Origin: Candidatus Altimarinota bacterium
GTDB taxonomy: Bacteria > Patescibacteriota > Gracilibacteria > BD1-5 > UBA2023
Assembly: GCA_043739785.1 (NCBI GenBank)
Contig: JAYUDN010000001.1
Coordinates: 37,392-101,391 of the forward strand
Length of the DNA: 64,000 bases
Direction of reading: 5' to 3'
A program made the translations under genes and the position numbers. The notes beneath the pieces are model-generated. The model made no database searches and had not been told where the DNA came from. It worked only from the letters and a program-made list of their open reading frames with translations. The stretch's first letter is position 1. Every line of letters begins with the position of its first letter. This document shows positions 12,352 through 58,245 of the stretch, piece after piece.

Positions 12352-13485
12352 ATGTCCTACGATCAGTTTGCTACCACATTCTCGAAGAGTCGGAAACACC
12401 ATCCTTGGCCAGAATTGGACGCTATTATTTCCGATATCCAATCCGAGGGATATATGAGGGTGCTTGATGTCGGGTGCGGTAACGGAAGGCTCCTCGAAGA
12501 GTGGTTCAAAAGAAGCGAAGCAAAACAAGGTTTGAATTGAGAACAAGAAAACCCCCCGTCGAAGGGGGGCAGGGGGATACGGGGTTGGTATGCTAACTCG
12601 AATCAAGCTATTCCGTATGATAGAAAACTCCTGGAAAAAGCGAAAGAAAATAGAAAATCTGGAAATCCAGTAGAAAATGCTTTTTGGTTTACTATTCTGA
12701 AATCTGAATCTCTTAAAAAATATAAGTTTACTCGACAGAAGCCACTTCTGACTTATGTAGTTGATTTTTATTGTTCCGAACTCTGATTGATTATCGAGCT
12801 CGATGGGGACTCTCATACTACTCAGATTTTATATGATCAAAAAAGAACCGAGGAACTAGAAAAGTACTGACTTTTTATCCTCAGATTTTCGAATCAAGAT
12901 GTGATGTTGCGGCCAGAGTGAGTATTAGAGAATCTACTTGAATGCATTCGACAGAGAGAAAGTTACCCCCCTCCCCCCCTTGGAAGGGGGGTATCACACC
13001 CATATACTTGAAATTGAAAAGAAGCTTTAGATATTACATATCTCTGAATCGATAATTCAGTCGGGATGATTAATGAAGCTAGAAAATGCCATCCTGGATA
13101 TGATTTCCGAGTTATTGAAATGGCTCAACTTGAAAACTTGAAAACTTGAAAACTTGAAAACTATGACGCTATAGTCTTGTTGGCATCTTTCCATCACCTC
13201 GAAACCGAAGCAGAGCGACTGACCGTATTGTCATCGCTTCGGAAAATGCTTTCACCACACGGACGAATCTATATGACGAACTGGAACCTGCTCGGGCAGC
13301 CTCGATATGAAAAAAGTCACCGAGGAAATGGCGACTTCGATATCAAGATCGGGGAATACATTCGATACTACCATAGTTTCCAGATCGAAGAGCTCCAGAC
13401 ACTTTTCGAAAAATCTGGATTCAGTATTCGAGAACATAGAATATTTGAAGGAGGAAAAAATATTTTCTCTATCGTAGGATTATAG
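12352..13485 (+). CDS. Class I SAM-dependent methyltransferase carrying an in-frame DUF559 endonuclease cassette
   Basis: Motif I VLDVGCGNGRLL lies upstream and LGIDNSVGMINEARK plus LLASFHHL downstream. One uninterrupted code-25 frame covers 377 codons. 12253..12540 and 13177..13485 are in the same frame (924 nt apart). Confidence 0.7.
12541..12995 (+). mobile_element. DUF559 (Vsr-like endonuclease fold) cassette with GC-rich hairpin ends, inserted in frame
   Basis: IPYDRKLLEKAKENRK...AFW..L......YKFTRQKPLLTYVVDFYCSEL(G)LIIELDGDSH...YDQKRTEELEKY(G)LFILRFSNQDV. Flanked by cccccc-gtcgaa-gggggg (12552..12569) and cccccc-ttggaa-gggggg (12974..12991). Confidence 0.7.
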
Positions 13486-25492: not shown

Positions 25493-26427
25493 GTTTTTTT
25501 GGAACTCCTTCTTTATCTGCCTCAGTCCTGGCAGATCTTTTCGAGGCCTCAGATATAGAGGTGACCTTTGTGGTGACCAATCCAGATAAGGCGGTCGGAC
25601 GATCCGAAGTCCTCGTGCCAACTCCGGTGAAAGAGCTCGCTCTCCTTCACAAGATTCCCGTATTTACCCCGACCAGAATCCGAGATAATACCGACCTCTT
25701 CGACACGCTTCGATCATTTGATGTGGAGTACTTCATCGTTGTCGCCTATGGCCGCATCCTCCCCCAGGAAGTCCTCGATATTCCGAAGAAACTCTGCATC
25801 AATATCCATGGCTCTATCCTTCCGAAATACCGAGGGGCTTCCCCGATTCAATCAGCTCTCCTTCATGGAGAGACCGAGACGGGCGTAACGATTATGAAAA
25901 TGAGCCTCGGGATGGATGAGGGTGATATTTTGAAAATTCGTACGATTCCTATCGCGGCCCATGAAACCAGTGAAACTCTGTTTGAGAAGTTTGCGGAGGT
26001 ATCGGGACCGACCCTCATCGCGACTCTTCATGAACTCGAGATGGGAGGGATTACATCACTTCCACAGAACTATATCGAGGCGACGTACTGTACAAAAATA
26101 GAAAAAGAAGATGGACTCGTGGATTGGAATCTTCCGGCGCGTGAAATCTATCATCGATGGCAGGCCTATACGCCTTGGCCTGGGATCTACACGATGTATG
26201 AGGGGAAACGCCTCCTTCTGGAGGGCGTTTCCAGTTGAAAGTTAAATGTTGAAAGTTGAAAGTTCGGAGAAACGTGACAAGTGATCAAACTGGAAGATGG
26301 TTCAATCTGAGTTCAATGTGGAGAATGAATCTTGACACTTGAGCAAGTAAAGCTAGAATGAAAAAAAACTCAATCCATACGGGATTTTGTAAATGGGAAT
26401 CGGAAGTTTTTAGAGTATAGGTTTTAG
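25477..26427 (+). CDS. fmt: Methionyl-tRNA formyltransferase
   Basis: FFGTP.....L..L, NIHGSILPKYRGASPIQ and a C-terminal domain read through five TGAs (VQCGEGILTLEQVKLEGKK). Confidence 0.9.
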
Positions 26428-28187: not shown

Positions 28188-28952
28188 ATGTGGAATATCG
28201 CCCTCAATACCTTCCGTGAGATCATACGCAATAAGTTTTTCTCCTTGATTGTCTTCTTCGGAGTTGTATTTCTCCTGATTTCTCTCCTCCTGAGAACCCT
28301 GGCCCTTGGGGAAATCGAGCGAATGCTCTATGACTTCGGGCTTTCCTTCATCGAACTCACCGGGCTCTTCGTCGTCCTGTTTCTTGGAGGCGGGATGCTC
28401 TACCGAGAGATCGAAGGACGCACGATCTATCTCCTCCTTTCGAAACCGATTCGTCGGTCGTCGATCCTCATCGGGAAATTTTTCGGGTTTGCGATGATTC
28501 TCGGGCTCATCACCCTCTTTCTCTTCGCTATATTCTACGGACTCATCGTCGGGAACGGATTCACCTTCGACTCGATGGCATATATGGCGGTACTCGGGAT
28601 CTACCTGAAGCTTCTCTCGCTCCTCGCCGTGATTCTCTTTTTCTCGACGGTGGCGTCTCCGATCCTCTCGATGTTTTGTACGATAGCCACCTACTTTATC
28701 GGACACAATGCATACGCGATTCTTGACTTCTCCGCTCGAAAGGGGAGTGTATTTTTCGAATGGATGGGTCGTATTACGATCACCCTCTTTCCGAATCTCG
28801 AAGCCCTCAACCTGAAGAACTATGTTGCGACGGGGATACCATTTGATATAAGGTATTGGTCTCTCGGATATGCAACCGCAGTCCTCTATATCATCGTGAT
28901 CCTCTACCTCGGAGTGCTTCTCTTCAATAAGAAATCATTCGATACGGTGTAG
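28188..28952 (+). CDS. ABC-2 type transporter permease-like membrane protein
   Basis: 254 aa with six predicted TM helices and a NosY/ABC-2-like N-terminus MWNIALNTFREIIRNKFF. No cognate ATPase lies nearby. Confidence 0.55.
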   Translation: MWNIALNTFREIIRNKFFSLIVFFGVVFLLISLLLRTLALGEIERMLYDFGLSFIELTGLFVVLFLGGGMLYREIEGRTIYLLLSKPIRRSSILIGKFFGFAMILGLITLFLFAIFYGLIVGNGFTFDSMAYMAVLGIYLKLLSLLAVILFFSTVASPILSMFCTIATYFIGHNAYAILDFSARKGSVFFEWMGRITITLFPNLEALNLKNYVATGIPFDIRYWSLGYATAVLYIIVILYLGVLLFNKKSFDTV

Positions 28953-29074: not shown

Positions 29075-29755
29075 ATGCATTCCACAGATCCTCATTATCC
29101 CATCGAATACACGCTCTGAGAGGTCGAGTTTTTTGGACGGAAATTCCGAGTGACGCCTGATGTATTGATTCCTCGTCTCGAGACCGAGTGACTCGTTCGA
29201 CGAGCTCGCACCCTCCTCCAAAAATCCAATAATCTAAGCACTCAAAAAACCACCATTATTGATATTGGCACCGGTTCATGAATCATCGGGGTGAGTCTTG
29301 CTGATCTCGCGGAGGAAGTGATATTTCTCGATATTTCCGAAAAGGCCCTTGAAGTAGCTCGAAAAAACTTTCGTACTCATTTTCCGAATAAAAAAGCAAA
29401 GTTTCTCCTATCAGACCTCCTTTCCAATATACCAATATACCAATATACCAATATTCTCCTTGTCGCCAACCTCCCCTATATCAAAGCCGATGACTGGGAA
29501 CATATGAGCGAAGACACTCGATATGAACCGGAACTCGCCCTCTTCGGCGGAGAACACACCGGATTCGAACTCTACGAGAGGCTCTTCGAGCAACTTTCAA
29601 CTTTCAACTTGCAACCTGTAACGGTTATGATCGAATTCGGGTTTGATCAACGAGTCATAGCAGAAGAAACCCTAAAGAAATATGGTTGGAAGTATGCATT
29701 TTTTACTGACTATGCAGGCATAGAACGATTCGCGGAAATTAATATTGACTTATAA
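29075..29755 (+). CDS. prmC: Release-factor glutamine methyltransferase (HemK/PrmC-like), short form
   Basis: FRVTPDVLIPRLETE(G)LV, GTGS(G)IIG and VANLPYI (NLPY in place of NPPY), with a TGA at 29279 inside the GxGxG SAM motif. The N-terminal helical domain is absent. Confidence 0.75.
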
Positions 29756-30314: not shown

Positions 30315-30347
30315 AAAAATCCCTTCCAAACTGGAAGGGATTTTTTT
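30314..30347. terminator. Bidirectional rho-independent terminator
   Basis: aaaaaatcccttcc-aaact-ggaagggatttttt. Confidence 0.7.
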
Positions 30348-30350
30348 GAA

Positions 30351-30455
30351 ATCCACTTGAATACTACTCTCACGACCTTCGACGGATCAACTGCAGTTCC
30401 TTCGATGGTCGTGAGAGAGATGTGGTAGCCAAGGAGGTTTTTGTTTGTGACTCAC
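30351..30455 (-). pseudogene. Diverged duplicate of the nusA 3' end
   Basis: The minus strand reads ..LLGYHISLTTIEGTAVDPSK.., compared with the nusA C-terminus ..LLGYRISLTTIEGTEVDPTK.. at 33207..33290. Roughly 80 percent nt identity by eye. Confidence 0.65.
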
Positions 30456-30574
30456 ATCAATCAAGGACAGAACGAAGAATTCCCGGTTATGAAACAACAG
30501 TCTATGAGGAGCGTGAGTTTGTGCGGATTCAGTACTACACAATGGCTACCAGAAATCCACCTGATTCAGAGAGA

Positions 30575-32908
30575 CTACCGATATTGGGAAGCAAGTTCTT
30601 CAAGGGCTTCTAGTTTTAGAAGAACATATGTTTTTTTATTCATTGTCGCTCGTTTCGTGTTTTCTTGTAGCCAAGCTTTTGAGCTATTTTTTAAAGTGGT
30701 TCTTTTGAGAACTTCGTATTTAAGTGGAGCATATTTTGACTCGATTAAGGCTCGGTATTCTTCACCAATAGCCTGGTAAGGTATCCCGGATATTGTTATA
30801 ATACCATTTTCGTTTATTTCCTCATCGATTAGAGAAACTTTTGTATTGATTTCAGCAAGTAACTCTCCAATCTTGCTTACACGTATGGCTCTTCATTTTA
30901 TTCCAGTTTGGGTGTTAAAAAATGGAATACTAAGTTTATCTTTCAGACCCGCTCTCATTGAATGATTCAGATATTGATTATTCTTTCCGTACGTATTTTC
31001 AATATAGTGAATATACCTATTGTCTAATACGTAATACCGTTCTCCTTTAAACGCAAATAATCCGTTTTCATCGATTGCATCAGCATGTACTAAAGACTTT
31101 ACACTCATTTTATCTATTAGAACACTTATAGAGCAAAACTGATACCTTTCTCATTCTTGGGACTGTCATACTTTTAGGTGGTCTTGAGATGCCTTTAGGT
31201 GGTTTTGTAGTCTTTGGAGTCACTCCAACTCAATACTAGCATATCATCTTCAGAGAAGTTCTATCAGTTCTCTGTCGAAGTCCGGATGAATTGCCTGAAA
31301 AGGTACTCATCATATAGTGCCAACACCATTTTTATTTATTTCTACAGATACAATATCTTCCATTACCTCATAACCAGAGAGTGTAAGATTATTAAGCATA
31401 ACCTCTCCTAGCTCATGCATCATCTCAAATGCATTCATTATACCACCTACTCGCTTACTACCATCTCAAGATACTTTAGTATTCGTAGAACCACTATTGG
31501 GGCTGGTTCATCTACTCTGTGCATCTGGTGGAGGAGTCAGTACATCCCATGACCGAGGAGCCATATAGAGTGTATTACTTGTATTTTTTGGAGGATATTT
31601 TTTTAGGTCTTGGGCACTCAAGGAACGCATAATTCGTCACATCAGCTGTATACTCTTGGCCGGAGACATAATCGCACATCACTGCAAATAACATCGAAGG
31701 GTCCTGACATCCCATCACTCTGCGACTTGTTGTACCGTTATAACCAGATCAATACTTCTATCCTGTATTCCTTTTTTTGCTTCGCGTGCGTCCATACCTT
31801 TTTTATACTTTCCATTTCCACTTGTCACGCGTACGGCTTTTACTCACTTTGATAGAGCAAGCTGAGTCACACTCTCAGCGTGTTCTATACTTCTACAAGC
31901 GTATATGCCAAGAAGATAATTATCTTGAGCCTTTTTCTCCTCAACGTACTCATCTATAAGCACTTCATCGAAAACCTTACCATCTTCATCAAAGTATCGA
32001 TATTTTTCATAGTCTTTTGTCGTGTCGTCATCATTGGGGCGGGTAGCATACGCATGACCGAGCAGCCGAGCCGTCGGAAGTATCAGAGTTCCATCATTGA
32101 CCGCGTCTTGAATTTTTCCCATATAAAATGGACGGGCGTATTCGAGTACATTTTTATTGGTAAGTCCAGGAGTAGCCGTAAAGTAAAGGTGAAGTTTTTT
32201 CTTGGCAATTTCTGAGATAATGGCTTCAGCTTTATCAATCTCAGATCCATCTTCAGACTCGGTGTCTTCCTCGGAAAGTGAAGTAAAGTGAGATTGAGTT
32301 TTTTCTCATAAACTCTTATGTCACTCATCAGATATGATACAATTTACCTGAGCAAAGATACTTTTAAGTACACCAAAATGAGACTTCGCAAGCTGATTGA
32401 ATCCATGGTAGGTAAGTATGATTACACCATTTGTATTCGATTGCATAAAATGGGGTATTCACTGAATCTGTTCTCATAGACTCCCATCACTTTCAGATGA
32501 TAGGCAAAATACCTCTCATTCGCTATACCCGACACCTGACTTCTCTTCGTTTCCTACGAGTTCATCTCGAGTATTACTTATAAGAGGAATATTGGGAACG
32601 AGAATGACATTGTTTCATCCGAGGGCTCTAAGTATTTTTCAGAAGAGATAGGTTTTTCCTACTCAGATGGCCAACTTCGCCAGTCCTGTACGATATCAAG
32701 ATTGTACTCAATCTATGATTCCACCAAGAGCATCATTTTGCTGTCCACGAAAAGAAATATCCTCATCACTCAGTTTCTGTAACTTCGCCACTTCTGATGG
32801 TATATCAGGCTGGGAAAGAATATCTGTAACTTTTCCACTATTGTCATTTGTGGGTAATCATAGGGCGGGGGGTGCATCAGGGCTGACCGATGGTTCTTCA
32901 GTATGCAT
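30575..32908 (-). CDS. SF2 (DEAD/DEAH-box, type III restriction res-like) helicase, 777 aa
   Basis: Motif I LAI(G)VGKTY, motif II IISDE(G)H, motif III TATPG, motif VI QLM(G)RIMR. More than 30 in-frame TGAs, so only 2 fragments (30893.., 31844..) appear in the standard-code track. Confidence 0.7.
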
Positions 32909-33156
32909 GGAAATAATTAAGTTACCTATATATAATAATATTATTATAACATATATATGTAAATATACAAATACTTCTAGTCACATCTAATTTCTACTTC
33001 TGCAGTTAGTCTACATTTTTGAAGTATCAAAAGGTTCTGTACTCATCTAAAGCCGGAGAATAATATCTTGTGACAAGCACAGAATAGGAGTCTATTAACT
33101 CTAAACAACATGAGTAAAATCAGTTTTCCTTGCCTTCAGTGATGAGTGTACATTAT

Positions 33157-33190
33157 AAAATCTCCTTCCAGATTAGAAGGGGATTTTTTT
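33157..33190 (-). terminator. Terminator downstream of nusA
   Basis: aaaatctccttc / gaaggggatttt hairpin with flanking A/T runs; homologous to the hairpin at 30314..30347. Confidence 0.55.
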
Positions 33191-33206
33191 GAAATCTATT
33201 TGTTTA

Positions 33207-34289
33207 CTACTCTCCTTCTTTCGTCGGATCCACTTCAGTTCCTTCGATGGTGGTGAGGGAGATGCGGTACCCGAGGAGGTCACCCGCGATGTTAATATTG
33301 GTCCCGCCTCGTCCAAGGACTTTCGCCTTTTCTTCATCCTTCACCGTTGCGCGGATGATATTATTCTCTTCATCGATTTCGATCTTTTCGACCGTTCCTG
33401 GGATGAGGGCTCGGCGAACCATTTCTTCTTGATTCGTCGTATAGTTGATGATATCGATCTTTTCCCCGAAGAGTTCATCGACGATATTGCGTACGCGCAT
33501 CCCCTTCGGTCCGATGAGACATCCAGCTGGGTCGACATCTTCCTCATCACTCGCGACGATGATCTTCGTCTTCACTCCCGGCATGCGGGCGATCGAGACA
33601 ATCTCGACGGTCCCTTCCTCGAGTTCTGGGGTATTCATCTCGAAGAGCTTCACGACGAGTTCCTTGTCTTTGCGAGAGAGGATGACGCGAGGTCCATTGA
33701 TTGGATCATTCTCTACCTTGCGTACATAGAGGTGCATACGCTGTCCAGGAGCGTATTTGTCTTTCGAGATCTGCTCACTCTTCGGGAGGATGACCTGGTT
33801 GCCATTGTATTCGAATACGACACGATTCTTCTCGACAAGCTCGACTCGGAGTGAGATAATCGTATCTTCCTTATCCTTGAAGAGGTGGTAGATTTTCTCT
33901 TTTTCAGTTTCTTGGATTTTCTGGACGATCACCTGTTTCGCGGCCTGCGCGGCGATACGACCGAATCCTTCCGAAGCGAGGACTTCGTCAGAGACGTCGA
34001 TTTCGACGGTATCTCCGATACTAAATCCGCTATCTTCACCGATATCTTCGAGGGATATTTCGACATCTGGATTTTCGACGGTTTCGACTACGGTTTTTTC
34101 GACCGATATTTCGAAGGTCCCAGCAGCAATATCCATATGGACACTGACATTGGCTTCTTTACTCGCGTAGTCTTTCTTATATGCGGTTTCGATCGCACGC
34201 TCGATGATGTCGAGGAGGCGTTCTTTCGGGATTTTCTTTTCAGCCGATATTTGGTTGATCGCGGCTTCGATCTTCTGGAGGTCAAACAT
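33207..34289 (-). CDS. nusA: Transcription termination/antitermination factor NusA
   Basis: N-terminal domain MFDLQKIEAAINQISAEKKIPKE, then S1 and two KH domains. The start is placed at Met59 of track ORF 33207..34463 because the upstream part is a translated repeat array. Confidence 0.85.
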   Translation of the reverse strand: MFDLQKIEAAINQISAEKKIPKERLLDIIERAIETAYKKDYASKEANVSVHMDIAAGTFEISVEKTVVETVENPDVEISLEDIGEDSGFSIGDTVEIDVSDEVLASEGFGRIAAQAAKQVIVQKIQETEKEKIYHLFKDKEDTIISLRVELVEKNRVVFEYNGNQVILPKSEQISKDKYAPGQRMHLYVRKVENDPINGPRVILSRKDKELVVKLFEMNTPELEEGTVEIVSIARMPGVKTKIIVASDEEDVDPAGCLIGPKGMRVRNIVDELFGEKIDIINYTTNQEEMVRRALIPGTVEKIEIDEENNIIRATVKDEEKAKVLGRGGTNINIAGDLLGYRISLTTIEGTEVDPTKEGE

Positions 34290-34560
34290 AGAGGGGGAGG
34301 GGTTAAGAATTAGCTGGTTAGCAGGTTTGTTGGGAGGTTGGGATGGGAGAAGGGTAGAGACGGTAGAAACGATCGAACGGTAGAGACGGGGGGCTGGTTT
34401 GCTGATTAGCTGGGAAGGAGAGAAGCTGGTTGGTGGGGAGAGGAGTTTCCATCCCCCTTCCAAGGGGGGCAGGGGGTAAAAAAAGAAGAGTAGAAAAGTA
34501 AAGAGAGAAACCTTATAGTACGGTCATTCCCGTGAAAACGGGAATCTAAATGAAACTTCA
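34290..34560. repeat. Intergenic mosaic repeat array B
   Basis: gctggt/ggtagag words, GC hairpin tccatcccccttccaaggggggcagggggt (34447..34480) and gtcattcccgtgaaaacgggaatc (34523..34546). Confidence 0.8.
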
Positions 34561-34657
34561 CGACGTTTCTGTTTTAAAAAAAGATTCGCCCGAGGGCCAA
34601 TCTTTTTACTATTCCTCCTGAGTATATCGATAGTTTATGAATTGTAAAATTTATTTT

Positions 34658-36685: not shown

Positions 36686-37480
36686 AAAGTTAGAATAGGA
36701 GGTAGCTGGTAAGCTGGGATGGGAGAAAAAGGGAGAAGAGTGGAAAAGGAGAAAGCTGATTCGCTGGTAAGAAAGTTGGAAAGGAAAAATAGTAGGATAA
36801 CTCGAGAGGAGGAATGGGTAAGATGATGCAAGGGTAAAAGAAAAAAAACGAGTTTTTGTCATTCCGACCGAAACGACCATAGGAAGTGAAGTGGAGGAAT
36901 CCCTTTTCACATTAAGAAGATAAAATCATACTGAAACCAAGGGATCCCTCGATTCCGGCTATCTCCTCCACTCGGGATGACAACGGTGAGAGAAGAGTAG
37001 AAGAGCGTAAAAGTAGAAGAGTAGAAGAGCGAATGGGGGTCTCTATCCCCCTTCCAAGGGGGACAAGGGGGTAGGGTATAAGGAAGTTTGGTGTCATTCC
37101 GACCGAAGTGACAGAGGGGAAAGCGCCACGAGAATTCCATTGTTACTTTGTCATTCCCGTGAAAACGGGAATCCAGCAAATAAGAAACTGGATCCCCGCA
37201 TGCGCGAGGATGACAACCAAAAGAAGTAGAAAAGAGGAAAGGGAGAGAACTTAGAAACGATGGGAAGGTGGATGAGAGTTTTTTGAATCCCCCTTCCAAG
37301 AGGGACTAAGGGGAGTAGGGTATAAGGAAGTAAAAAAGGAGAAGAGTAGAAAAGTAGAATTGGATAAAGTAAGAACAGCAAGAGCCAAACACGGGAAAAC
37401 CCGAGCACTCCAACTCTCGGAGAGATGATCACATTGAAAAGAGAGAAGAAAGTCATATAATACGCCACTCATACACATCT
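36686..37480. repeat. Intergenic mosaic repeat array C (about 0.8 kb, largest in the window)
   Basis: Modules: M3 36858..36903, M5 36941..36982, GC hairpins 37031..37086 and 37280..37330, M3 37093..37138, M1-M2 composite 37150..37215, plus gtagaag and gctggt word tracts. Confidence 0.85.
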
Positions 37481-39201: not shown

Positions 39202-39249
39202 CCATATATTGCTTTTCGAAACCTGATTGTCCAATTCTGATACTCCATC

Positions 39250-40578
39250 ATGCCATCTCTTACTCTTTCTCACAATCCACATCATGACCTAGTATGACAT
39301 ATAGAACTATATGGCGGAAAGCTGGGTTCTCTCGAGTTTATAAAAAAACTGTATTTGGATCATCCTGAAGAGTTCGATGAAACTGGTATTAAAGTCTGAC
39401 CACAATATACTCCCACTATCATACCAGGCGGATGAAGTATGACGGAGGATGACTTTGCAGCTTTCATGAATAAACATCATCTTGCTGAATGGTCTGAGAT
39501 TATGGTTCGCGTAAGTGTTCCTGGAGACTATAGGAGTCTTGTAGACACAATGCCGACCAAATCACTCAATATCTCCCCGATAGAGTACTGGAAAGATTTG
39601 CCTGACGGTTCTCGTGATTTACTCTTCGAGCCAGAGTGAGCCACACGCATAGTGACTCCTTGCGACAAAGTCAATGAAGTGTGCCGGCAAATAAGAGGTC
39701 GTGTGGAGGAAATAAAATGAGATATTCTGCAGTATGCGAATCTTGCCGGAGTACCATTTAGTATGGATACACTTACGTATGGGGTAGTCCCTCGATTCTC
39801 AAAAGGTCATATCACTGTCACCGAACATCCGAATCTCGATCAAACCTATATCGAGGAACATTTTCAAGAACACTGATATAGGCCTAGTTGAGTGAGGATA
39901 TGAAAACCTGAGGACTATTTCAAGAGTCCACTAGCAAAAGTACAGAAATTCCTCCAGTTTCTCAGAAAAAAATGAGTTCTAGATAAAGAAATTGCATATA
40001 GTTTTGAATTATGAAAAAACGATTCAGATGAACTTATTTTGTTTCAGATTCGTGAACTCTGTCGAAAAGTCCCCACACCATCCCCGGCACTTACTCTCAG
40101 AGGATACAATAATGATTATATAGGAACGATTCTTACGACCATCCCATCTGGAGGATCAAAAATTTTTGAACTTTGCTCCAAATCCAATGATTCTATACAA
40201 ACACCTGTATGAGTCCCACTCTTTGGAGAATTTCGAGGAGGTAGTCTTTCAAGTTTGGATAGCATAACTCTTGATCCGAACAAGTCCGGAATTCTTACTG
40301 AAAGTAATCGAAATCCTACTATTGGTGGTCATGATGTCATGCGACAGGCTCAATATGCACTTCAGAGTCCTGGATGAGGCATTGTAGTACTCTGAGAATT
40401 CTCAGACTGATGCGGCTCATATATCTCTGACATCGAGCGTGATTGTAAGCCAACCCCATCATACGATGAAAATTTATCTCGCGATTACCAAGAATGAAGT
40501 GCAAAACTGGAAGTGATGCACTTTTCGGATTGATATATTGAAATCAAAAAACTGTCCTCATTTAATGGGGAGGACTAG
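39250..40578 (+). CDS. Hypothetical protein (442 aa)
   Basis: A continuous code-25 frame with about 20 in-frame TGAs. Only a 66-aa piece (39439..39639) is visible in the standard-code track. Confidence 0.4.
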
Positions 40579-42557: not shown

Positions 42558-42645
42558 AGATAAAAAAATTACTCTTTCAGGATACCATATATCTCCAGGG
42601 AATGCAAAAAATTGACTTTCCGAATCTGCGCAATACACTTTTTCC

Positions 42646-43275
42646 ATGAAATGTATCATCTGACTCGGAAATCCAGGGAAAAACTATCAACATACTCGAC
42701 ACAATGTCGGGTTTATGATGATAGACCAGATTGCTGAAAGGTATGGCGATGGAGTATGGAAGGATTCGAAGTTCCAGGGAGTGGTTTCGAGTTGAGAGTT
42801 TCCTGTTTTCAGTTGAAAAAAACTTTTATTGGATTCTACAGGTGAATGAATGGAAAGAGCTGTGAATGGACAACCAACAGCTCAAAACTCAAAACCCAAA
42901 ACCGAAAACTGTCTCCTCCTGAAGCCTCTTACCTTTATGAACCTCTCAGGGCAGTCGGTCGCGAGCCTGGTACACTTCTACAAACTGGATCCGAAGACCG
43001 ATATTCTCGTCATCGCTGATGATATCGATATGGCATTCGGAAAGGTTCGATACCGGGCAAAGGGGAGTTCCGGAGGGCAAAATGGACTCAAGTCCATCAT
43101 CGAACATCTCGGGACGGACGAATTCGCTCGGATCAAAGTCGGGATTGGTCGGGATGATCGCTTCGCCGTGAGTGACTGGGTTCTCTCGAAGTTCACGAGT
43201 GAAGAAATGAAAATACTCAAAGAAGTCGTATTTCTGGAGGTTCAGTCAAAAATAGATGAATGGATGGAGGGGTAA
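42646..43275 (+). CDS. pth: Peptidyl-tRNA hydrolase with an internal insertion of about 32 codons
   Basis: MKCII(G)[39 protein letters not shown] and VGIGR. The N-terminal part is only recovered by reading TGAs at 42661, 42793, 42814 and 42847. Confidence 0.85.
42784..42910 (+). repeat. Heptad-array-bounded segment inside pth
   Basis: Left: gtttcga|gttgaga|gtttcct|gttttca|gttgaaa (42784..42818). Right: ctcaaaa|ctcaaaa|cccaaaa|ccgaaaa (42881..42908). The two arrays are in inverted sense. Confidence 0.7.
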
Positions 43276-43838
43276 TGAAAAGTGAAGAATGAATAACGAA
43301 GAATAGAGGGGAAATTACGAAATACGAATGAAGAATTAGTAGCAAAAAATGAAGAATATGAGCCCTTCGTCATTCTGAGGTCGCCCCTTTGCGAAGCATT
43401 GGAAGTACCCTTGGGGTACGAAGAATCCAGATTCCGAAAGACCGAACTTCTTCAGGACTATCCTGATCGGTGTACGGGAGTGAAAAATTGTTGTCATTCC
43501 CGTGAAAACGGGAATCCACTTCTCTTTACCCCCTTAGTCCCCCTTGGAAGGGGGATTCAAAATCCTCATTCGCTTTTCTTTTGTTGTCATCTCGAGTGGA
43601 GGCGATAGCCGGAATCGAGAGATCCCTTTGCTTCAGTATGATTTCAATCCCTTGAAGTGGAATAAGGGATTCCTCCGCTTCACTTCCAGCGGTCGTTTCG
43701 GTCGGAATGACAAAAAAATCAGTTCTACTCGTCTACCATCTTCTACCACACTCTACCATCTTCTACCACACTCTACCATCGTCTACCCAACCAGCACACT
43801 AGCAAACCAGCCAACCAGTTATTTCCTAACCTTCCCCT
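43276..43838. repeat. Intergenic mosaic repeat array D
   Basis: M6 43367..43429, M1 43493..43517, GC hairpin 43527..43565, M5 (reverse) 43586..43625, M3 (reverse) 43666..43711, and CTACC phased every 10 nt at 43733..43783. Confidence 0.85.
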
Positions 43839-44681
43839 ATGCGTCTTGATCTCGCCGTATCCTCGAAACTCAGTATTTCTCGCAACCGTGCCCAGCGTCT
43901 TATCGATGAGGGACTCGTTTCTGTCGACGGGAAAGTCTGTCGAAAACCGTCCCATGAAGTGGAAGGGGAGATTATCGAAGTATCCGAGGGTTCCAGTAAT
44001 CACTGGGTTGCTCGGTCAGCAGGGAAACTGGATGGTTTCTTGGATGAGTTGCAGGTTGAAGGTTGCAGGTTACAGGATGAAAAATGAGAAAATGTATGAG
44101 AGAAAAACTCCATTCTTGATCAATCCAGCTCGTTTTTATGAACCAAGATAGATGAAGTTCTAGTTTCAAAACCTTCAACTTGCAACTTGCAACTTGCAAC
44201 TGCCACCTGCCTCGACATCGGCTCTTCTACCGGAGGATTTACTCAGATCCTCCTCGAGCGGGGAGCGAGGCGAGTGGTTGCGGTCGATGTCGGGACGGAT
44301 CAGCTTCACCTTAGTCTGCGAGGCGATCCGCATATCGAGCTCTATGAAAATACGGATATTCGCACCTTTTCGAAAATAGAAAAATTCGACATTATCACCA
44401 TCGATGTTTCCTTTATCTCCCTTCGGGAAATCGTTCCCGAGCTACAGAGATTCATGAAAGAGGATACCGATATATTCCTTCTTTTTAAGCCTCAGTTTGA
44501 AGTCGGACGAGCGAACCTCCGTAAGACGGGAGTCCCGAAAAGTGAGGGAATCATAGATTTATCCCTTCATGATTTCCAGATATTTCTCGAACATGCCGGA
44601 TTCACCATAATGAAAGTATCGAAAGCTCAGGTCGTCGGGGAAGCTGGTAATCAGGAGTATATGATGTGGGTGAGGCGGTAG
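43839..44681 (+). CDS. tlyA: TlyA-family rRNA 2'-O-methyltransferase (S4 plus FtsJ domains) with an internal insertion
   Basis: The S4 domain is MRLDLAVSSKLSISRNRAQRLIDEGLVSVDGK. The SAM motif is CLDIGSSTGGFTQILLERGA..V.AVDVG. 43839..44087 and 44187..44681 are in frame. Confidence 0.8.
44048..44204 (+). repeat. Heptad-array-bounded segment inside tlyA
   Basis: Left: gttgcag|gttgaag|gttgcag|gttacag (44048..44075). Right: cttcaac|ttgcaac|ttgcaac|ttgcaac (44173..44200). The arrays are in inverted sense and bracket a ~95-nt core. Confidence 0.7.
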
Positions 44682-45030
44682 GGAGGTAGAAACGAGGGAA
44701 AGATAGAGACGGAAAAAGGCCGGTAAGCTGGTTTGCTGGTTAGAGGGTTGGAAAATTGGAAAGTGGATGAGTGGAAAAGGTAGAATAAATGAGCTTTTGT
44801 CATCCCGACCGAAATGGAACAAGTTGGAGTGTAATAGAGAAACCCCATTTCTATTTTGTCATTCCCGTGAAAACGGGAATCCAGCAAACAAGAATCTGGA
44901 TCCCCGCATACGCGAGGATGACAAACAAAGGAAGTGGCAGAAGTCTAGAAAGATAGAAAAAATTAGAATATATAACAAGAAAAAACTGAAAAATTTGCCA
45001 AATAAAAATAAATAGAGTATGATTAGTAGG
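44682..45030. repeat. Intergenic mosaic repeat array E
   Basis: ggtagaa/gctggt words, an M3 variant at 44799..44845 and the M1-M2 composite at 44858..44923. Confidence 0.8.
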
Positions 45031-48481: not shown

Positions 48482-49261
48482 TTAACACACTACAACTTTT
48501 TCCTTCTCTTTTTCATAGGCTCACTGTGGTTCAGACTCTAAAAAAATAAGAGGGGCAAATACCTCAATTCCAAGTGACATGATTGTATTATTACAATAAC
48601 TTGTCGACCAGACTTGTTTTCCATCGCTTCCTCTCTGTACTGGATAAATACTAAGTGTTCCGTGTCCATCTTCTACTGGAATTTTCCATGTTCCCGCTTT
48701 GGTCAGAAGCATTCAAGAAGTCGAGAATCACACTTCTGCAGGTCATAGATTTTTTTCTCCTACGTAGGTAACTTCCTGATGAATCGAAGGGGCGTAATAT
48801 TCAGCCAGTTGTATTATCGCACGTGGACTATAGAAAAATCTTCGAACTCCATGTTCATCAGTAAATTCGATACAGAATCATTCATCTCTCGTAATTTTTT
48901 CAAACCATCCGTTAGTATTTATAGCTCAACTGAATTGCAAAGCGTCATCAATAGTTACTTCAGAAACTGGCGTTAGATTTTTATCACGTCCTCAGGACGT
49001 ATAAATATATTTTGCAAACACGGCTCATCATTTATTTAGATCTTTAAGTTCCGGTGGTAGGGGTTGCCGAGAGAGCCAATCCGGAGAGATACACTTTCTT
49101 CACAGAAATGAAGTAAGTGCTTCCGGAGGAATTACTAATCATTCTCAGAGTCAAAGAACTTTATTAGATCATTTAGTAGTCGTTCAAATAACAGAACCTA
49201 AGCCAGATCAAGAATAGATTTTGCCTGCTTCATTTCTTGTTCATCGTAAACGATTATCCAT
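48482..49261 (-). CDS. Hypothetical protein (259 aa), very UGA-Gly rich
   Basis: A continuous code-25 frame with about 20 in-frame TGAs. Only 48521..48712 is visible in the standard track. Confidence 0.4.
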
Positions 49262-49300
49262 AATCAATAAGTTATAAATTAGTTGGACTATTTTATATTG

Positions 49301-50194
49301 TTACTCTCTAGATGTACCCAATTTTCCTACTTGTACTTGCACACTTCCAGTAACCTCTACCACATTTCTTTGGTTCGGGATTCAGAAAAGCTCGGCGATA
49401 TCGTCAGGCAAGTGTGGGGTTGTTTCGAAAGAACAGACGAGGGTGTTTTCCAAATGTACCTCGATATGTTGATCTCAGGAAACGATGTAAAATGTCGGTT
49501 TTACTTCTGGAACTGCAGGCGTGGTTTCTCTCGGGGCGTCTCCTTCTCTATGACCGGAATGATATCTGAAATCAAAAATAGTTTTTGAGGTTTCAGATAG
49601 ATCTTCGCCAGATTGTGCTATACTCCCATTTTCCAGAAACAACCAGTGGATATAGGTCGTAAATCATCATTCATCCTGCCCGTCTTTGAATACCTCTCCA
49701 GTAAGATTCAGTTGCAAATGTGAGTTAATTCATCGTTGTTTTACAAAAGAAAGGATTTTCACTTTCCCATCATGTCAAAACTCAGTAAAAGTTTCCGGTT
49801 TTATACGGAAAGAATTTCTTCATACATACTCATCTACTCAGTTATCAAATGTGACATTTTTTGATTTTTGTTTCATTTTAAATTCTGTCACTCCTCCATC
49901 TTCAATGTGGGCTACTATTTCAGTGGTTATAACCCCATCACGCTTTCTAAAAATTAGACTCTCTAGCTCTGCTCTCATAAATTTACTAACTACCTCCCAT
50001 TCTCAGTGTTTAAAATAAGAATAGGAAAAACCTTTTTCGATTCATGTCTCTGGCTCTCCAGCACTATCAATTCTATCTACTAGCTCTGCAGGGAATGGAG
50101 TGCTCGGGAGCCTTTCAAATGTACCAAATGGACTTTCAGCCACTCAAGTCAAAGGAGTGACCGAGGTAAAAGCAGGAACCAGAAAATTATCCAT
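49301..50194 (-). CDS. Hypothetical protein (297 aa)
   Basis: ATG at 50194 and TAA at 49301, with 11 in-frame TGAs. It is in the same frame as the downstream gene and is entirely absent from the standard-code track. Confidence 0.45.
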
Positions 50195-50306
50195 AAAATA
50201 AAGTAAATATATCTAGCATTATTTTGAATAAATATTATTTGTCAAATACTATTATCATTTTTCCAAATTCTTTGTCGTTTCTTACCATTTTCCATATATT
50301 GGTGCC

Positions 50307-51284
50307 ATGTATATCCTTGCAATTCCGACATCTCATACTATCGATACGGAGCCACTGATTTATTTCTGTCCCGAGAACTTCGAGTCGCAGATAGGACTCG
50401 GTTCGCTAGTCGAAATCCCCGTTCGTACGTCGATGACCTATGCGGTCATTTCGGATATTGATGTGGAAATACCAGTCGGGCTTGAGATTACTGATATCCG
50501 CTCGATCGTCCGAGTGGTCTGTACGACGCCACTATTGGGCGAGGATACCCTTCGCGTGATTCCAGAAATTGCTGAACTCTCTCTCGTCCCGATTCATAAG
50601 GTCCTCTCCCTCTTCCTTCCGAAGTCGACATTGACAGCTCTCGAGAAGAAGAATTTTGAGGTGTTGGATAGTTTGCCGGTAAGCTGGGATGCTGGTTTGC
50701 AGGTTGGGGAATTGGAAGTCAAATCTGAGAAAAGAAAACTTGAGAACTCAAAACTCAAAACTCAAAACTCAAAACTCGAACGTTCCATCGAATTCTTTCA
50801 TTCGACTCGAGTGACCCCGGCTGTCATCGAGACCTATATAACCCCCGATACGCTCGTTATCCTGCCTGACGATATCCTCCTTCGTTCGTGTGAACAGTAT
50901 TTTACGAGTCAGTCTTCCTTGAGGGAAGAGCATTCTCACGGAAAACAAGCATTATTTACCTATGGAGATACGACGATCACTCGAAAGATCCGGAGCTGGG
51001 TCGATGTGAGAAATCATAAATTTTCGATTTGTTTTTGAACTCGACGACTTCTTTACTATAATCTCTCGAAGTATCGACAGATCCTCTATATAGAAGATGG
51101 ATTCGCTCGTGAGTACTTCCAGCACCCGCTCCGATACAAGCATATCGATATTCTCAGAGCCCTTTCGAAGCACTCTTCTCTCGATATCCGTATCCTGACG
51201 AGCATCCCAGCGCTCGAAACCCTCTCAAAACTCCGAAACTTTTCCATCCACAATATCACATGAAAATCGACCCTCAACGAATAA
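50307..51284 (+). CDS. Degenerate, truncated PriA-like (primosomal protein N') protein
   Basis: The N-terminal 3'-DNA-binding-like domain is LIYFCPENF...GSLVEIPVRT. STRVTPAV occupies the Walker A position and IEDGF the DEEH position. The protein ends after 325 aa. Confidence 0.5.
50675..50781 (+). repeat. Word/heptad repeat block inside the PriA-like gene
   Basis: gccggtaagctgggatgctggtttgcaggttggggaattggaag (the same words as the intergenic arrays), then ctcaaaa x4 plus ctcgaac (50747..50781). Confidence 0.7.
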
Positions 51285-54607: not shown

Positions 54608-54892
54608 ATGAATATCTCCACAGAATTTCTCTACACGATCAGTAATCTCTACCTCTATCACGTCGGAAGTGTTGGAGTGGCTATTGCTATTATTATCGTA
54701 TGTATTCTTTTTGTGGTGGTATGTCATTTTGCATTTGTCTTTACTTATGGGGATCTCCTCCTTCGAAAAGAGGCACAACTCCTCGAACATAAGAAATCCG
54801 TCCTGCAAGAACTGATCCTGATGAAGGATATCCAGACCGAGATCGAAAAAGAGATCGAAAAAGCCATGCTGAATCAGACGTTTAGTGGGTAG
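54608..54892 (+). CDS. Small membrane protein (94 aa)
   Basis: A TM helix VGVAIAIIIVCILFVVVCHFAFVF followed by a charged coiled-coil-like tail. Confidence 0.45.
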   Translation: MNISTEFLYTISNLYLYHVGSVGVAIAIIIVCILFVVVCHFAFVFTYGDLLLRKEAQLLEHKKSVLQELILMKDIQTEIEKEIEKAMLNQTFSG

Positions 54893-55520
54893 GAAGCAGG
54901 TAGATCTTGGTAGATAACAGGTAGAAACGGCAGTAGGTAGAAAGCGAGGAAAATAAGATGAGAAAAGGCTGGTATGCCGTTAGGCTGGTAAGCTGGTATG
55001 GGAGAAACGAATGGAAAAAGGAATAGTAGAGAGATGATAGCAGATAGAATATGGGAAAATGGTAGAAACGGTAGAAGAGGAGAAAAGTAGAAAAGGGAGG
55101 AACGATAGGATTGGTAAAAAATGGATGGGATTTTTTGAATCCCCCTTTCAAGGGCGACTAAGAGGGTAACGGTTCGGAAAGACGATGGGGAGGTAGAAAT
55201 GATGGAATGGTAGAAAAGGTAGAAGCGAAAGAAGTATTTTTTGCGTTATTCCGACCTTAGTGGAATAAAGTAAAATCAAGAGAAGGAATCGTATCCTCAT
55301 TTCGTCATTCCCGTGAAAACGGGAATCCAGCAAATAAGGAACTGGATCCCCGCATACGCGAGGATGACAAAGAGACGAAGGAATGCCTCTCCCGAGTCCT
55401 ATGGATCGGCATGACACAGTATTGTCATTCCGACCGAAACGACCAGAGGAAGTGAAGTGGAGAAATCCCTTTTATTCTCATCCGTCTTGTTCGATAGTTT
55501 TTATCGATTTTCCTTCTATT
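54893..55520. repeat. Intergenic mosaic repeat array G
   Basis: GGTAG at 54888, 54899, 54909, 54920 and 54936; GC hairpin 55141..55182; M1-M2 composite 55304..55369; M3 55424..55468. Confidence 0.85.
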
Positions 55521-56762: not shown

Positions 56763-57968
56763 ATGATTTTTTTCCCAATCTTTATGTACAAAAAACCCAT
56801 CTTTCTTCTGAGCGTGGCGATTATAGGACTCTTTTTTGCGATGATCGGTTGGAGCGTGTACCGGTACTATGCGCTTCTCTCGACCGACAACGCCCAGAGT
56901 CCGACCGTGATGGTTTCTTCGGGAACCCTGACGGTGGTACGATGAGAAGTGGCGTATGATATGAAGAGCGGAGAATCTTTCGAAATCCAAGCCCTCGACC
57001 GTATCATTTCCGGATCAGATTCGCTGGCTAGCATCACTTGGCCAGATGGAAGCCTTTCTCGTATCGGAGGCGTGACGGAACTCAGTATCCGAGAACTCTC
57101 CGTCAAGCGAGATCTCTCAACCTCTCGTATCGTGGTCGACCTCGAAAAATGAAAGATCTGGACGAATATCGTCCGAGCGTTCTTCGGAGACTCCTACTTC
57201 GATACTCGCATCCCTGGGCAGAGCGTGACAGCCGCGGTCCGAGGGACAATCTTTGAGATCAACCTGGATCAAGACTATATCCACAGTGTGAATCATGCGG
57301 TCAATCTGACGGATAAAGACGGGAAATCAGTCGATCTCCTTCCTGGAGAAGTCGTCAAGATTACCAATATCTTCGACCGACTTACTCAGGCAGTGCTCGA
57401 CTCGGCATGGAATGCTCTCAATCAAGTAGCGGACACTGAGTTTATTGCAGCTCGAACCAAGGAAATCCAAGCACAGATAACTTCACTCTCGGGGACCGAT
57501 TCCATTTGGGATCGATTTATCCGATGGATCCTCTCCTATGTGCCATCGTTTGACCGGATCAAGGTCGCGAAAATGCTCGATATGGGAACGGAGAATTTCG
57601 ATGCCATTACGTCCCATGTCTCGACGGTATCGCTCGTCCGCTGGTACCAGGATATTGCCAATACTGACTTCTCTGCTGACCTTCGCCAGACGCTGCGTGA
57701 GAAAATCCTCTCGACCGCGACCCCCGATGAGAAGAAGACCCTAGAACCCACCCTCGTTTATGGAGCGATCTGGGATCGATTCTCCGCGACGAGCAGTGGC
57801 CTCTCGACGTCTCTCGATACTTTCATCTCAAAGATGGGGGCGACTGCGACTCCCGAGATTCGCAAGCTCTATGATGGCCTCAATAAGCAGTTCAAAGTCG
57901 AAGACACCATACAGCAAGGCATCGATACCCTCAAAAACTCGATACAAGATATAGTGAAGCCAAACTAA
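56763..57968 (+). CDS. FecR-domain membrane protein
   Basis: N-terminal TM segment, then VRGTIFEINLD. 56763.., 56949.. and 57225.. are in frame via TGAs at 56943 and 57150. Confidence 0.6.
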
Positions 57969-58245
57969 GAGAGAGACGGTAGAAATGGTAGGAGCAGGTA
58001 GATTCTAGCAAATAGAAGATAGAAAGGGCAGAGAGGTTAGAAACGGTAGAAACTAAGTATAATTGGTAATTCCATCCCCCTTCTAAGGGGGATTGGGGGG
58101 TAAGGTATGAGAGAGCGAAATGGTAGAAGGGTAGAAAAGTAGAAAAGGGAGAAGTTGAATAGGATGAGTAGTTCAATTACAGTATAGCTTCTATTCAGCT
58201 CTTTTTTGGTTTGGAGAATGAGGTTTTTTTCCATAAAATCCCACT
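57969..58245. repeat. Intergenic mosaic repeat array I
   Basis: GGTAG at 57978, 57987 and 57997; GC hairpin 58070..58109; gtagaaaag words. Confidence 0.8.

What the first reader, a model, noticed from the sequence alone, without database searches (positions are those of the whole stretch)
43725..43790. CTACC words phased at exactly 10 nt (six in a row); the GGTAG equivalent recurs in other arrays
CTACC starts at 43733, 43743, 43753, 43763, 43773 and 43783, directly upstream of tlyA. The complementary GGTAG occurs at 54888/54899/54909/54920 and at 57978/57987/57997 with 9-11 nt spacing. One-helical-turn phasing places every word on the same DNA face. That pattern is typical of iterons, cooperative regulator or nucleoid-protein binding arrays, and intrinsically curved DNA. 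Orientation tracks the neighbouring genes: sense GGTAG lies downstream of genes and CTACC upstream.
Basis: seen in the sequence. Interest (0 to 1): 0.65.

Follow-up and report, generated by a model that had tools for sequence, protein, structure and literature searches.

The report
Young tandem repeat upstream of tlyA
The six evenly spaced CTACC words are about three copies of a recently duplicated 20-base unit, one of many fast-changing short repeats between genes in this uncultured Gracilibacteria genome, and nothing found here suggests a conserved protein-binding array or curved DNA.

Summary
CTACC starts at 43733 to 43783, exactly 10 nt apart, and GGTAG clusters recur in other spacers (21 close same-strand pairs against 1.1 in shuffles).

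The exact phasing comes from one young minisatellite: a 20-bp unit, 2.8 copies, 97% identical. Every other GGTAG cluster has spacings of 8 to 11, 15 to 17 or 23 nt, with a mode of 9.

The window is a Candidatus Gracilibacteria genome that reads TGA as a sense codon. Its gene spacers are mosaics of degenerate short tandem repeats and three palindromic modules.

These families occur only here and in one sister MAG. About 50 other Gracilibacteria loci lack them, and in one relative (L009) pth and tlyA lie 4 nt apart. In the sister MAG the array before tlyA has different units.

No replication gene or origin signal lies nearby, and predicted curvature is very low. So iteron, operator and curved-DNA readings are not supported.

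The orientation rule does hold: GGTAG follows stops and CTACC precedes starts. My best reading is that slippage makes the repeats and selection keeps only G-poor copies next to start codons. Such copies are structure-free and start-codon-free, which suits translation start without a Shine-Dalgarno site.

This is an ordinary kind of feature in an unusual genome.

The parts
43732..43787 (+). Focal array: a 20-bp minisatellite TCTACCATCTTCTACCACAC in 2.8 copies. Each unit holds two diverged 10-mers nnnTCTACCA, which gives six CTACC words 10 nt apart.
   Evidence: 97% matches, score 105. The sense-strand RNA is predicted unpaired (MFE 0.0).
43720..43729 (+). Degenerate seventh unit (CAGTTCTACT) at the 5' edge of the array.
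   Evidence: Read directly from the sequence.
43789..43818 (+). Second tandem array, AACCAGCA in 3.8 copies. It is the complement of the GCTGGTWn arrays seen in other spacers.
43819..43838 (+). Start-proximal leader of tlyA: G-poor, with CTAACC at 43826-43831. That motif contains a TAA in the tlyA frame.
   Evidence: The same TAAC motif sits at about -15 in the nusA leaders of relatives.
43274..43340 (+). Purine-rich degenerate repeats (AATGAAG and similar) that start at the pth stop codon.
43491..43517 (+). Palindromic module A (TTGTCATTCCCGTGAAAACGGGAATCC). It also occurs at 44856, 34524, 37147 and 55299.
43530..43565 (+). Hairpin module C (CCCCCTTGGAAGGGGG core). Its core pattern matches 11 times in the window, both strands counted.
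43584..43713 (+). Module B, about 130 bp, with TTGTCAT...ATGACAA ends. Further copies lie at 36853-36984 and 55422-.
44677..44810 (+). GGTAG and GCTGGT arrays directly after tlyA. The first GGTAG supplies the TAG stop codon of tlyA.
34353..34389 (-). CTACC-type array (period 9) in the predicted nusA leader of about 325 nt, followed by ACCAGC words and TAACC before the ATG at 34289.
54888..54940 (+). GGTAG cluster with spacings 11/10/11/16. It starts in the TAG stop codon of gene 54608-54892.
57978..58134 (+). GGTAG clusters (spacings 9/10, and 8) after the stop of gene 56763-57968.

Best explanation
The array is a young minisatellite. A 20-bp unit, itself made of two diverged 10-nt units nnnTCTACCA, was duplicated to 2.8 copies by replication slippage or unequal recombination. 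That step is inferred from the 97% identity between copies.

The unit belongs to a lineage-specific family of degenerate short tandem repeats: GGTAGAAAn, GCTGGTWn, AGAAGAGT and AATGAAG. Together with three palindromic, MITE-like modules these repeats have inflated the gene spacers of this Gracilibacteria species and its sister. This much is shown.

I see no sequence-specific job for the array. What is selected is its orientation. Next to a start codon only the C-rich, G-poor strand is tolerated as the sense strand. G-free RNA cannot fold and cannot contain ATG, GTG or TTG. In a lineage that starts translation without Shine-Dalgarno pairing, such RNA therefore leaves the true start as the only accessible one. 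After stop codons the complementary purine-rich strand, which is rich in TAG, is tolerated. This selective filter is inferred.
For: Repeat nature: Tandem Repeats Finder gives period 20, 2.8 copies, 97% identity. Short-read contigs from two samples break at or near the spacer repeats; one starts inside the array at 43751, the other ends about 120 nt into the spacer.

Family membership: the same words and modules recur in at least 8 spacers of the window.

Lineage restriction:
- GGTAGA arrays and modules A, B and C occur in the window and in L002, and in none of about 50 other Gracilibacteria loci.
- Strong tandem arrays with a non-triplet period are about 10 times denser here (1.4-2.2 per 10 kb against 0.15).

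No conservation at the locus:
- pth and tlyA are 563 bp apart here and 412 bp apart in L002, where the module order differs and the array has 9-nt CGTYTCTAYC units.
- They are 4 nt apart in L009. In L064 tlyA abuts another gene.

No general helical phasing.

RNA-level fit:
- The array has MFE 0.0. The tlyA region -110 to +10 folds at -1.1 kcal/mol, against -25.2 for random 120-nt windows.
- 129 nt before tlyA carry no ATG, GTG or TTG (160 nt before nusA, 229 nt before the gene at 28188). The median for random positions is 16 nt.
- The 60 nt upstream of starts are 14% G, against 23% in coding sequence.
- nusA leaders across the clade have 0-2 G in 30 nt.
- The nusA array lies downstream of a promoter-like site, so it is predicted to be transcribed.

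Literature: the sister lineages SR1 and Peribacter lack the CCUCC anti-Shine-Dalgarno core (PMC10783764). In Bacteroidetes, which lack Shine-Dalgarno sites, initiation depends on an unstructured region around the start and AUG is depleted there (PMC6847099).

The same repeat words also sit in frame inside genes, which argues against a dedicated regulatory role.
Against: - The 7-nt core TCTACCA is invariant in all six units and only 3 positions vary. With three distinct unit types this has about an 8% chance, so it is not significant.
- A 38-nt block of the nusA array is 97% identical between the window and L002, although coding DNA is only about 82% identical. This could mean constraint or recent homogenisation.
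- The strict orientation rule shows that selection acts on these arrays. A positive function at the RNA level is therefore not excluded.
- Copy-number variation within a species was not observed directly.
- Gene starts come from my own codon-usage calls under code 25.
- No transcript data exist.
Confidence: 0.6

Rival explanations
1. The arrays are positively selected RNA elements. C-rich CUACC repeats would act as long unstructured landing pads for the 30S subunit or protein S1, or as translational enhancers. Alternatively, 5' CUACC arrays would pair with 3' GGUAG arrays of the same or the neighbouring cistron, to protect or process the mRNA.
For: - Orientation follows transcription in 8 of 8 clusters.
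- The leader is free of structure and of start codons.
- In both the window and L002, arrays lie closest to the start codon while the hairpin modules lie further away.
- The arrays flanking tlyA on its 5' and 3' sides pair better than shuffled controls (-73.9 kcal/mol, z = -2.9, 2 of 200 shuffles).
Against: - About 50 relatives do without the arrays and have G-free leaders of only 25-35 nt.
- Sequence, unit length and copy number differ between sister species.
- Pairing within a spacer is no better than composition predicts (z = -0.5 to -1.9; whole-spacer fold z = -1.4).
Confidence: 0.2
2. The words would form a DNA-level binding array for an initiator (iterons), a cooperative regulator or a nucleoid protein, or they would make the DNA intrinsically curved.
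For: - Six identical cores lie at 10-nt spacing on roughly one helix face.
- The 20-bp unit length is in the range of iterons.
- The words cluster far beyond chance.
Against: - No rep or dnaA gene and no change of GC-skew sign nearby; the neighbours are pth and tlyA.
- The phasing is not shared by the other clusters, whose spacing mode is 9 nt with a range of 8-23.
- The array is absent or different at the orthologous locus.
- The predicted bend is 4.9 degrees, at the 3.7th percentile.
- A strand orientation tied to gene direction is not expected for a site read on duplex DNA.
- The same words occur inside coding sequence.
Confidence: 0.06
3. The C-rich, G-poor, unstructured arrays would be Rho loading (rut-like) sites that attenuate transcription into the downstream gene.
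For: The composition (C much greater than G), the lack of structure and the regularly spaced YC dinucleotides match what is generally known of rut sites (own knowledge).
Against: - The arrays end 20-50 nt before start codons, so termination would fall inside the genes they precede.
- They are hypervariable and dispensable in relatives.
- Whether this organism has Rho was not checked.
Confidence: 0.05

Closest known systems
Bacterial minisatellites / VNTR loci (tandem repeats of about 10-100 bp that evolve by slippage)
   Same: Head-to-tail copies of a 20-bp unit with near-identical copies. The locus is intergenic. The orthologous locus in the sister species has different units and a different copy number.
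   Different: Copy-number polymorphism within a species was not shown here. The array is one member of a genome-wide family that shares a core word and has an orientation rule.
Mosaic intergenic repeats: E. coli BIME/REP and pneumococcal BOX elements (boxA-(boxB)n-boxC)
   Same: Spacers are built from a few short modules in variable order and number. Some modules are palindromic, and the spacers lie in transcribed regions between genes.
   Different: There is no sequence similarity to those elements. Here much of the material is 7-11-nt tandem arrays with strong purine/pyrimidine strand asymmetry. No RAYT-type transposase was looked for.
STRR (short tandemly repeated repetitive) heptamers of heterocystous cyanobacteria
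   Same: Lineage-specific tandem arrays of 7-9-nt units scattered in non-coding DNA, with no assigned function.
   Different: The sequences and the phylum differ. Here the arrays also occur in frame inside genes and obey an orientation rule. The comparison rests on my own knowledge of STRR; my paper search turned up nothing I used.
Plasmid and chromosomal iterons
   Same: Direct repeats of about 20 bp in register with the helix.
   Different: There is no initiator gene, no AT-rich unwinding element, no DnaA boxes and no conservation.
Translation initiation regions of bacteria that lack Shine-Dalgarno sites (Bacteroidetes; PMC6847099)
   Same: The region before the start is unstructured and depleted of start codons.
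   Different: Here the leader is rich in C and T rather than A. It is G-free, carries a TAAC motif near -15, and has been extended to more than 100 nt by repeats.

Membership tests
Iteron array | Three or more direct repeats of about 17-22 bp | tested here: met
   A 20-bp unit in 2.8 copies.
Iteron array | Lies in an origin, next to a rep or dnaA gene, with an AT-rich unwinding element | tested here: not met
   The neighbours are pth (PF01195) and tlyA (S4 + FtsJ). GC skew does not change sign near 43.7 kb. The flanks are C-rich repeats, not AT-rich.
Iteron array | Repeat conserved among related replicons | tested here: not met
   Absent from the same locus in L002, L009 and L064.
Intrinsically curved DNA (phased A-tracts) | A-tracts of 4-6 bp repeated every 10-11 bp | tested here: not met
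   The array has no A-tract.
Intrinsically curved DNA (phased A-tracts) | High predicted curvature | tested here: not met
   The wedge model gives 4.9 degrees over 66 bp, at the 3.7th percentile of the window. A phased A6 control gives 103 degrees. The wedge parameters were recalled from memory.
Operator or cooperative regulator site array | Sites conserved upstream of orthologous genes | tested here: not met
   The tlyA upstream region differs in L002, and there is no spacer at all in L009 and L064.
Operator or cooperative regulator site array | Overlaps or adjoins a promoter | tested here: not met
   No promoter-like site lies in or after the array. The best site in the spacer matches 9 of 12 positions, at 43615-43642.
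Minisatellite / VNTR | Head-to-tail copies with high identity | tested here: met
   97% identity over 2.8 copies.
Minisatellite / VNTR | Copy number varies between strains of one species | not testable with these tools
   Only identical short contigs of the same strain were found, and both end in the repeat-rich spacer (one inside the array). The sister species L002 has a different array.
Mosaic intergenic repeat elements (BIME/BOX-like) | A few module types recur in many spacers in variable order and number | tested here: met
   Modules A, B and C and the arrays occur in at least 8 spacers. The module order differs between the window and L002.
Mosaic intergenic repeat elements (BIME/BOX-like) | Sequence homology to REP, BOX or any Rfam family | tested here: not met
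   No Rfam match at the array. Module A gives only a weak match to WsnRNA46, below its gathering score (30.1 bits against 65.3).
DNA uptake sequences (DUS/USS) | An exact 9-12-mer dispersed as single copies in both orientations | tested here: not met
   The conserved core is only 6-7 nt, the words are clustered in tandem, and their orientation is tied to gene direction.

The most novel reading that the evidence does not exclude
In this Gracilibacteria lineage, which reads TGA as glycine and appears to lack Shine-Dalgarno sites, polar repeat arrays would be a selected part of gene expression. G-free CUACC/ACCAGC arrays would serve as extended, start-codon-free ribosome landing pads before genes. 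TAG-rich GGUAG arrays would act as stop traps in all three frames, or as pairing partners, after genes. The repeats would then be a repeat-based way of marking the boundaries between genes.
Probability: 0.15. Interest if true: 0.6.

Novelty: new member of a known kind. Interest (0 to 1): 0.3.

Why it matters
The finding itself is a cautionary case. An exact 10-nt phasing looks like a designed binding array but is the by-product of one recent 20-bp duplication.

The surrounding genome is of more interest. This small-genome bacterium of the candidate phyla radiation has spacers, and even essential genes, invaded by lineage-specific short repeats. The orientation of those repeats obeys transcription.

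If the orientation rule holds across the whole genome, it gives a simple sequence read-out of what a ribosome without Shine-Dalgarno pairing tolerates next to start and stop codons. It also explains why short-read assemblies of this lineage fragment.

Tried and rejected
- Coding reading. With TGA read as sense, an open frame runs through the array (42612-43802). It has 15 in-frame TGA codons, a negative coding score and no start context. pth ends at TAA 43275, and an in-frame TAA precedes the tlyA ATG.
- Long hairpin between the purine-rich 5' arm and the pyrimidine-rich 3' arm of one spacer. Duplex energies are no better than shuffles (z = -0.5, -1.9 and -1.0). The whole-spacer fold has z = -1.4.
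- Promoter inside the array. None was found.
- Known RNA family. None matches at the array.
- Origin of replication. GC skew does not change sign near 43.7 kb. The only switch in gene orientation is near 25 kb.
- Strain polymorphism. Exact-protein look-ups returned only short contigs identical to the window; two of the three end in the repeat-rich spacer. The metagenome scan with TlyA found one distant relative only.
- Composition around long open frames in relatives. The signal was too diluted by shadow frames under code 25 to be useful.
- Low-threshold Tandem Repeats Finder counts did not separate this genome from controls. Only arrays with score >= 50 and a non-triplet period did.
- Literature searches for intergenic repeats in Gracilibacteria found no relevant paper.

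Full report
**1. The observation**

CTACC starts at 43733, 43743, 43753, 43763, 43773 and 43783 on the + strand. GGTAG starts at 54888/54899/54909/54920/54936 and at 57978/57987/57997.

The word occurs 126 times in the window, against 68 +/- 8 in dinucleotide shuffles. Same-strand neighbours within 25 nt number 21, against 1.1 in shuffles (maximum 6). The longest run at 9-11-nt spacing has 6 words, against at most 2. The clustering is therefore real.

Tandem Repeats Finder describes 43732-43787 as a 20-bp unit, TCTACCATCTTCTACCACAC, in 2.8 copies at 97% identity and score 105, the best in the window. As a 10-bp period the stretch matches only 73%. The six words thus reflect one internal 10-nt spacing plus a recent duplication of the unit, not six independent placements. 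An AACCAGCA array (3.8 copies, 43789-43818) follows directly.

**2. What genome this is**

Coding density rises from 56% to 91% if TGA is not a stop. In the PilT Walker A motif a TGA codon falls where glycine is expected (EKGIILITGPTGSGKST), which indicates genetic code 25.

A NusA-based scan found about 55 Candidatus Gracilibacteria MAGs. L002 has 99% NusA identity in the best segment and 81-87% DNA identity over shared genes. L003-L024 have 82-87% NusA identity, and the rest 66-80%. Short contigs from two sequencing runs are identical to the window.

I called genes with a codon-usage model under code 25. pth ends at TAA 43275 and tlyA starts at ATG 43839; Pfam hits are PF01195 for pth, and S4 plus FtsJ for tlyA. 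A TAA lies in frame 3 codons before the tlyA ATG. The array is therefore non-coding and sits in a 563-bp spacer.

**3. Anatomy of the spacers**

At least eight spacers are mosaics of the same few parts:
- Module A: TTGTCATTCCCGTGAAAACGGGAATCC...
- Module B: about 130 bp, with TTGTCAT...ATGACAA ends
- Hairpin module C: core CCCCCTTCCAAGGGGG
- Degenerate tandem arrays: GGTAGAAAn, GCTGGTWn, AGAAGAGT, AATGAAG

The pth-tlyA spacer reads, in order: purine-rich repeats, A, C, B, the CTACC array, the ACCAGC array, CTAACC, then ATG.

nusA, on the minus strand, has nearly the same start-proximal layout: a CTACC array, ACCAGC words, TTAACC and ATG. Its array lies downstream of a promoter-like site (TTTACA, 16 nt, TATACT at 34648-34621), so it falls in a predicted leader of about 325 nt.

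**4. Phasing and curvature**

Without the focal array, the spacings between neighbouring words are 8 (2 cases), 9 (5), 10 (2), 11 (2), 15-17 (4) and 23 (1). Tandem arrays in the window mostly have periods of 7, 8 or 9. The family shows no preference for the helical repeat.

A wedge-model calculation gives a 4.9-degree bend for the 66-bp array. That is the 3.7th percentile of all windows; a phased A6 control gives 103 degrees. I recalled the wedge parameters from memory, so this test is approximate.

**5. Comparison with relatives**

GGTAGA arrays and modules A, B and C occur in the window and in L002, but in none of about 50 other Gracilibacteria loci. Strong tandem arrays with a non-triplet period occur at 1.4 per 10 kb here and 2.2 in L002, against 0.15 pooled elsewhere.

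At the locus itself:
- L002 has a 412-bp spacer with the modules in a different order (B, A, C). Before tlyA it has a different array of 9-nt CGTYTCTAYC units.
- L009 has pth and tlyA 4 nt apart.
- In L064 tlyA abuts another gene.

At nusA, relatives have a promoter, a conserved hairpin with a T-run, and a G-free leader of 25-35 nt. In the window and L002 that leader has been expanded by repeats. The two share one 38-nt block (37 of 38 identical) but differ in copy number and flanks.

The array is therefore recent, specific to this lineage and not conserved. This argues against an operator or iteron. No rep or dnaA gene lies next to the array, and GC skew does not change sign near it. No Rfam family matches the array.

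**6. The orientation rule**

All eight intergenic word clusters follow the nearest gene end. GGTAG lies on the sense strand just after stops; twice it supplies the TAG stop itself, at 44679 and 54890. CTACC lies on the sense strand before starts, and this also holds for minus-strand genes sitting in a plus-strand region. The rule therefore follows transcription, not replication.

More generally:
- The 60 nt before starts are 14% G, against 23% in coding sequence.
- nusA leaders across the clade have 0-2 G in 30 nt, with a TAAC motif near -15.
- CTAA occurs in 9 of 33 upstream regions, against 1.3 expected.

As RNA the array is unpaired (MFE 0.0). The tlyA region -110 to +10 folds at -1.1 kcal/mol, against -25.2 for random windows.

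The 129 nt before tlyA carry no ATG, GTG or TTG. The figure is 160 nt for nusA and 229 nt for the gene at 28188, while the median for random positions is 16 nt. After stops, more reading frames are closed within 45 nt than at random positions (1.42 against 0.70).

**7. Mechanism**

Shown: the array is a young tandem duplication within a lineage-specific, fast-changing repeat family.

Inferred: slippage or unequal recombination makes and remodels the arrays, and selection filters their orientation. G-free sense RNA cannot fold and cannot contain a start codon. It is therefore harmless, and perhaps helpful, upstream of a start that is chosen without Shine-Dalgarno pairing.

Two papers support this reading. 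The sister lineages SR1 and Peribacter lack the CCUCC anti-Shine-Dalgarno core (PMC10783764). In Bacteroidetes, which lack Shine-Dalgarno sites, initiation depends on an unstructured region around the start and AUG is depleted there (PMC6847099).

The same repeat words also occur in frame inside genes, which fits promiscuous repeats better than dedicated regulatory sites.

**8. Rivals**

- A positive RNA-level role (a landing pad, or pairing between 5' and 3' untranslated regions) is not excluded. The arrays flanking tlyA pair better than shuffles (z = -2.9). However, pairing within a spacer is no better than composition predicts, and relatives do without arrays.
- The DNA-binding, iteron and curvature model fails on phasing, conservation, genomic context and predicted curvature.
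- A Rho-loading role fits the composition but not the position, and I did not check whether the organism has Rho.

**9. Verdict**

The functional interpretation is not supported.

The feature is a new member of a known kind: a minisatellite within mosaic intergenic repeats. It lies in an unusual, repeat-invaded Gracilibacteria genome. Interest is low to moderate.

Noticed in passing
whole window: TGA is a sense codon here, consistent with genetic code 25 (glycine). Coding density is 56% with TGA as a stop and 91% without. Many apparently split genes (pilT, tlyA, pth) are intact under code 25.
   Followed up: yes
window 44048-44201 (tlyA); 42781-42912 (pth): Both genes carry in-frame insertions (about 45 aa and 32 aa) bounded by inverted heptamer tandem arrays: (GTTGCAG)n...(CAACTTG)n in tlyA and GTTTTCAGTTGAG.../(CTCAAAA)n in pth. 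Each insertion contains in-frame TGA codons but no TAA or TAG. Both are absent from L009; in L002 the pth insertion is present and the tlyA one is shorter. They resemble the Rickettsia palindromic elements found inside genes.
   Followed up: partly
window 13127-13162, 26233-26264, 29424-29454, 29591-29615, 50685-50777: Perfect heptamer or octamer tandem arrays lie inside other genes: a SAM methyltransferase, fmt, a prmC-like gene and the gene at 50307-51284. In the last, GCTGGT words precede an AACTCAA array of 4.7 copies. Units of 7-8 nt inside genes expected to be essential are odd, because one copy more or less shifts the frame.
   Followed up: partly
window about 34575-34605 (- strand); L003-L055 just upstream of nusA: A hairpin followed by a T-run (GACCTGCC..GGCGAGTC + T7-8) sits right after the nusA promoter and is conserved across Gracilibacteria. 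It looks like a leader terminator or attenuator.
   Followed up: partly
window, -12 to -17 before many starts (for example 43826-43831); nusA leaders of L002-L024: A CTAA(C) motif occurs in 9 of 33 upstream regions against 1.3 expected. It peaks at -15 in the nusA leaders of relatives, which are G-free. It may be a start signal that replaces the Shine-Dalgarno site.
   Followed up: partly
window 30438-33180: This segment of about 2.8 kb is absent from L002 and is flanked by a duplication of about 100 bp that includes the 3' end of nusA (30337-30438 and 33180-33280). It carries a helicase-like frame (30578-32986, - strand) with 26 in-frame TGA codons. It is probably an inserted mobile element.
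   Followed up: partly
window 39202-40575 (+), 48485-50212 (-): These long open frames have very high in-frame TGA counts (17; 17 and 11) and low codon-usage scores. They may be recently acquired code-25 genes.
   Followed up: no
window about 24.9-25.1 kb: My gene calls are nearly all on the - strand to the left of this point and mostly on the + strand to the right. A tRNA-Arg lies at the switch, and the sign of GC skew changes there. It may be an origin region.
   Followed up: no
window 44840-44941 (- strand): Palindromic module A gives a weak match to Wolbachia sRNA 46 (RF02625), below its gathering score (30.1 bits against 65.3, E = 0.0024).
   Followed up: no
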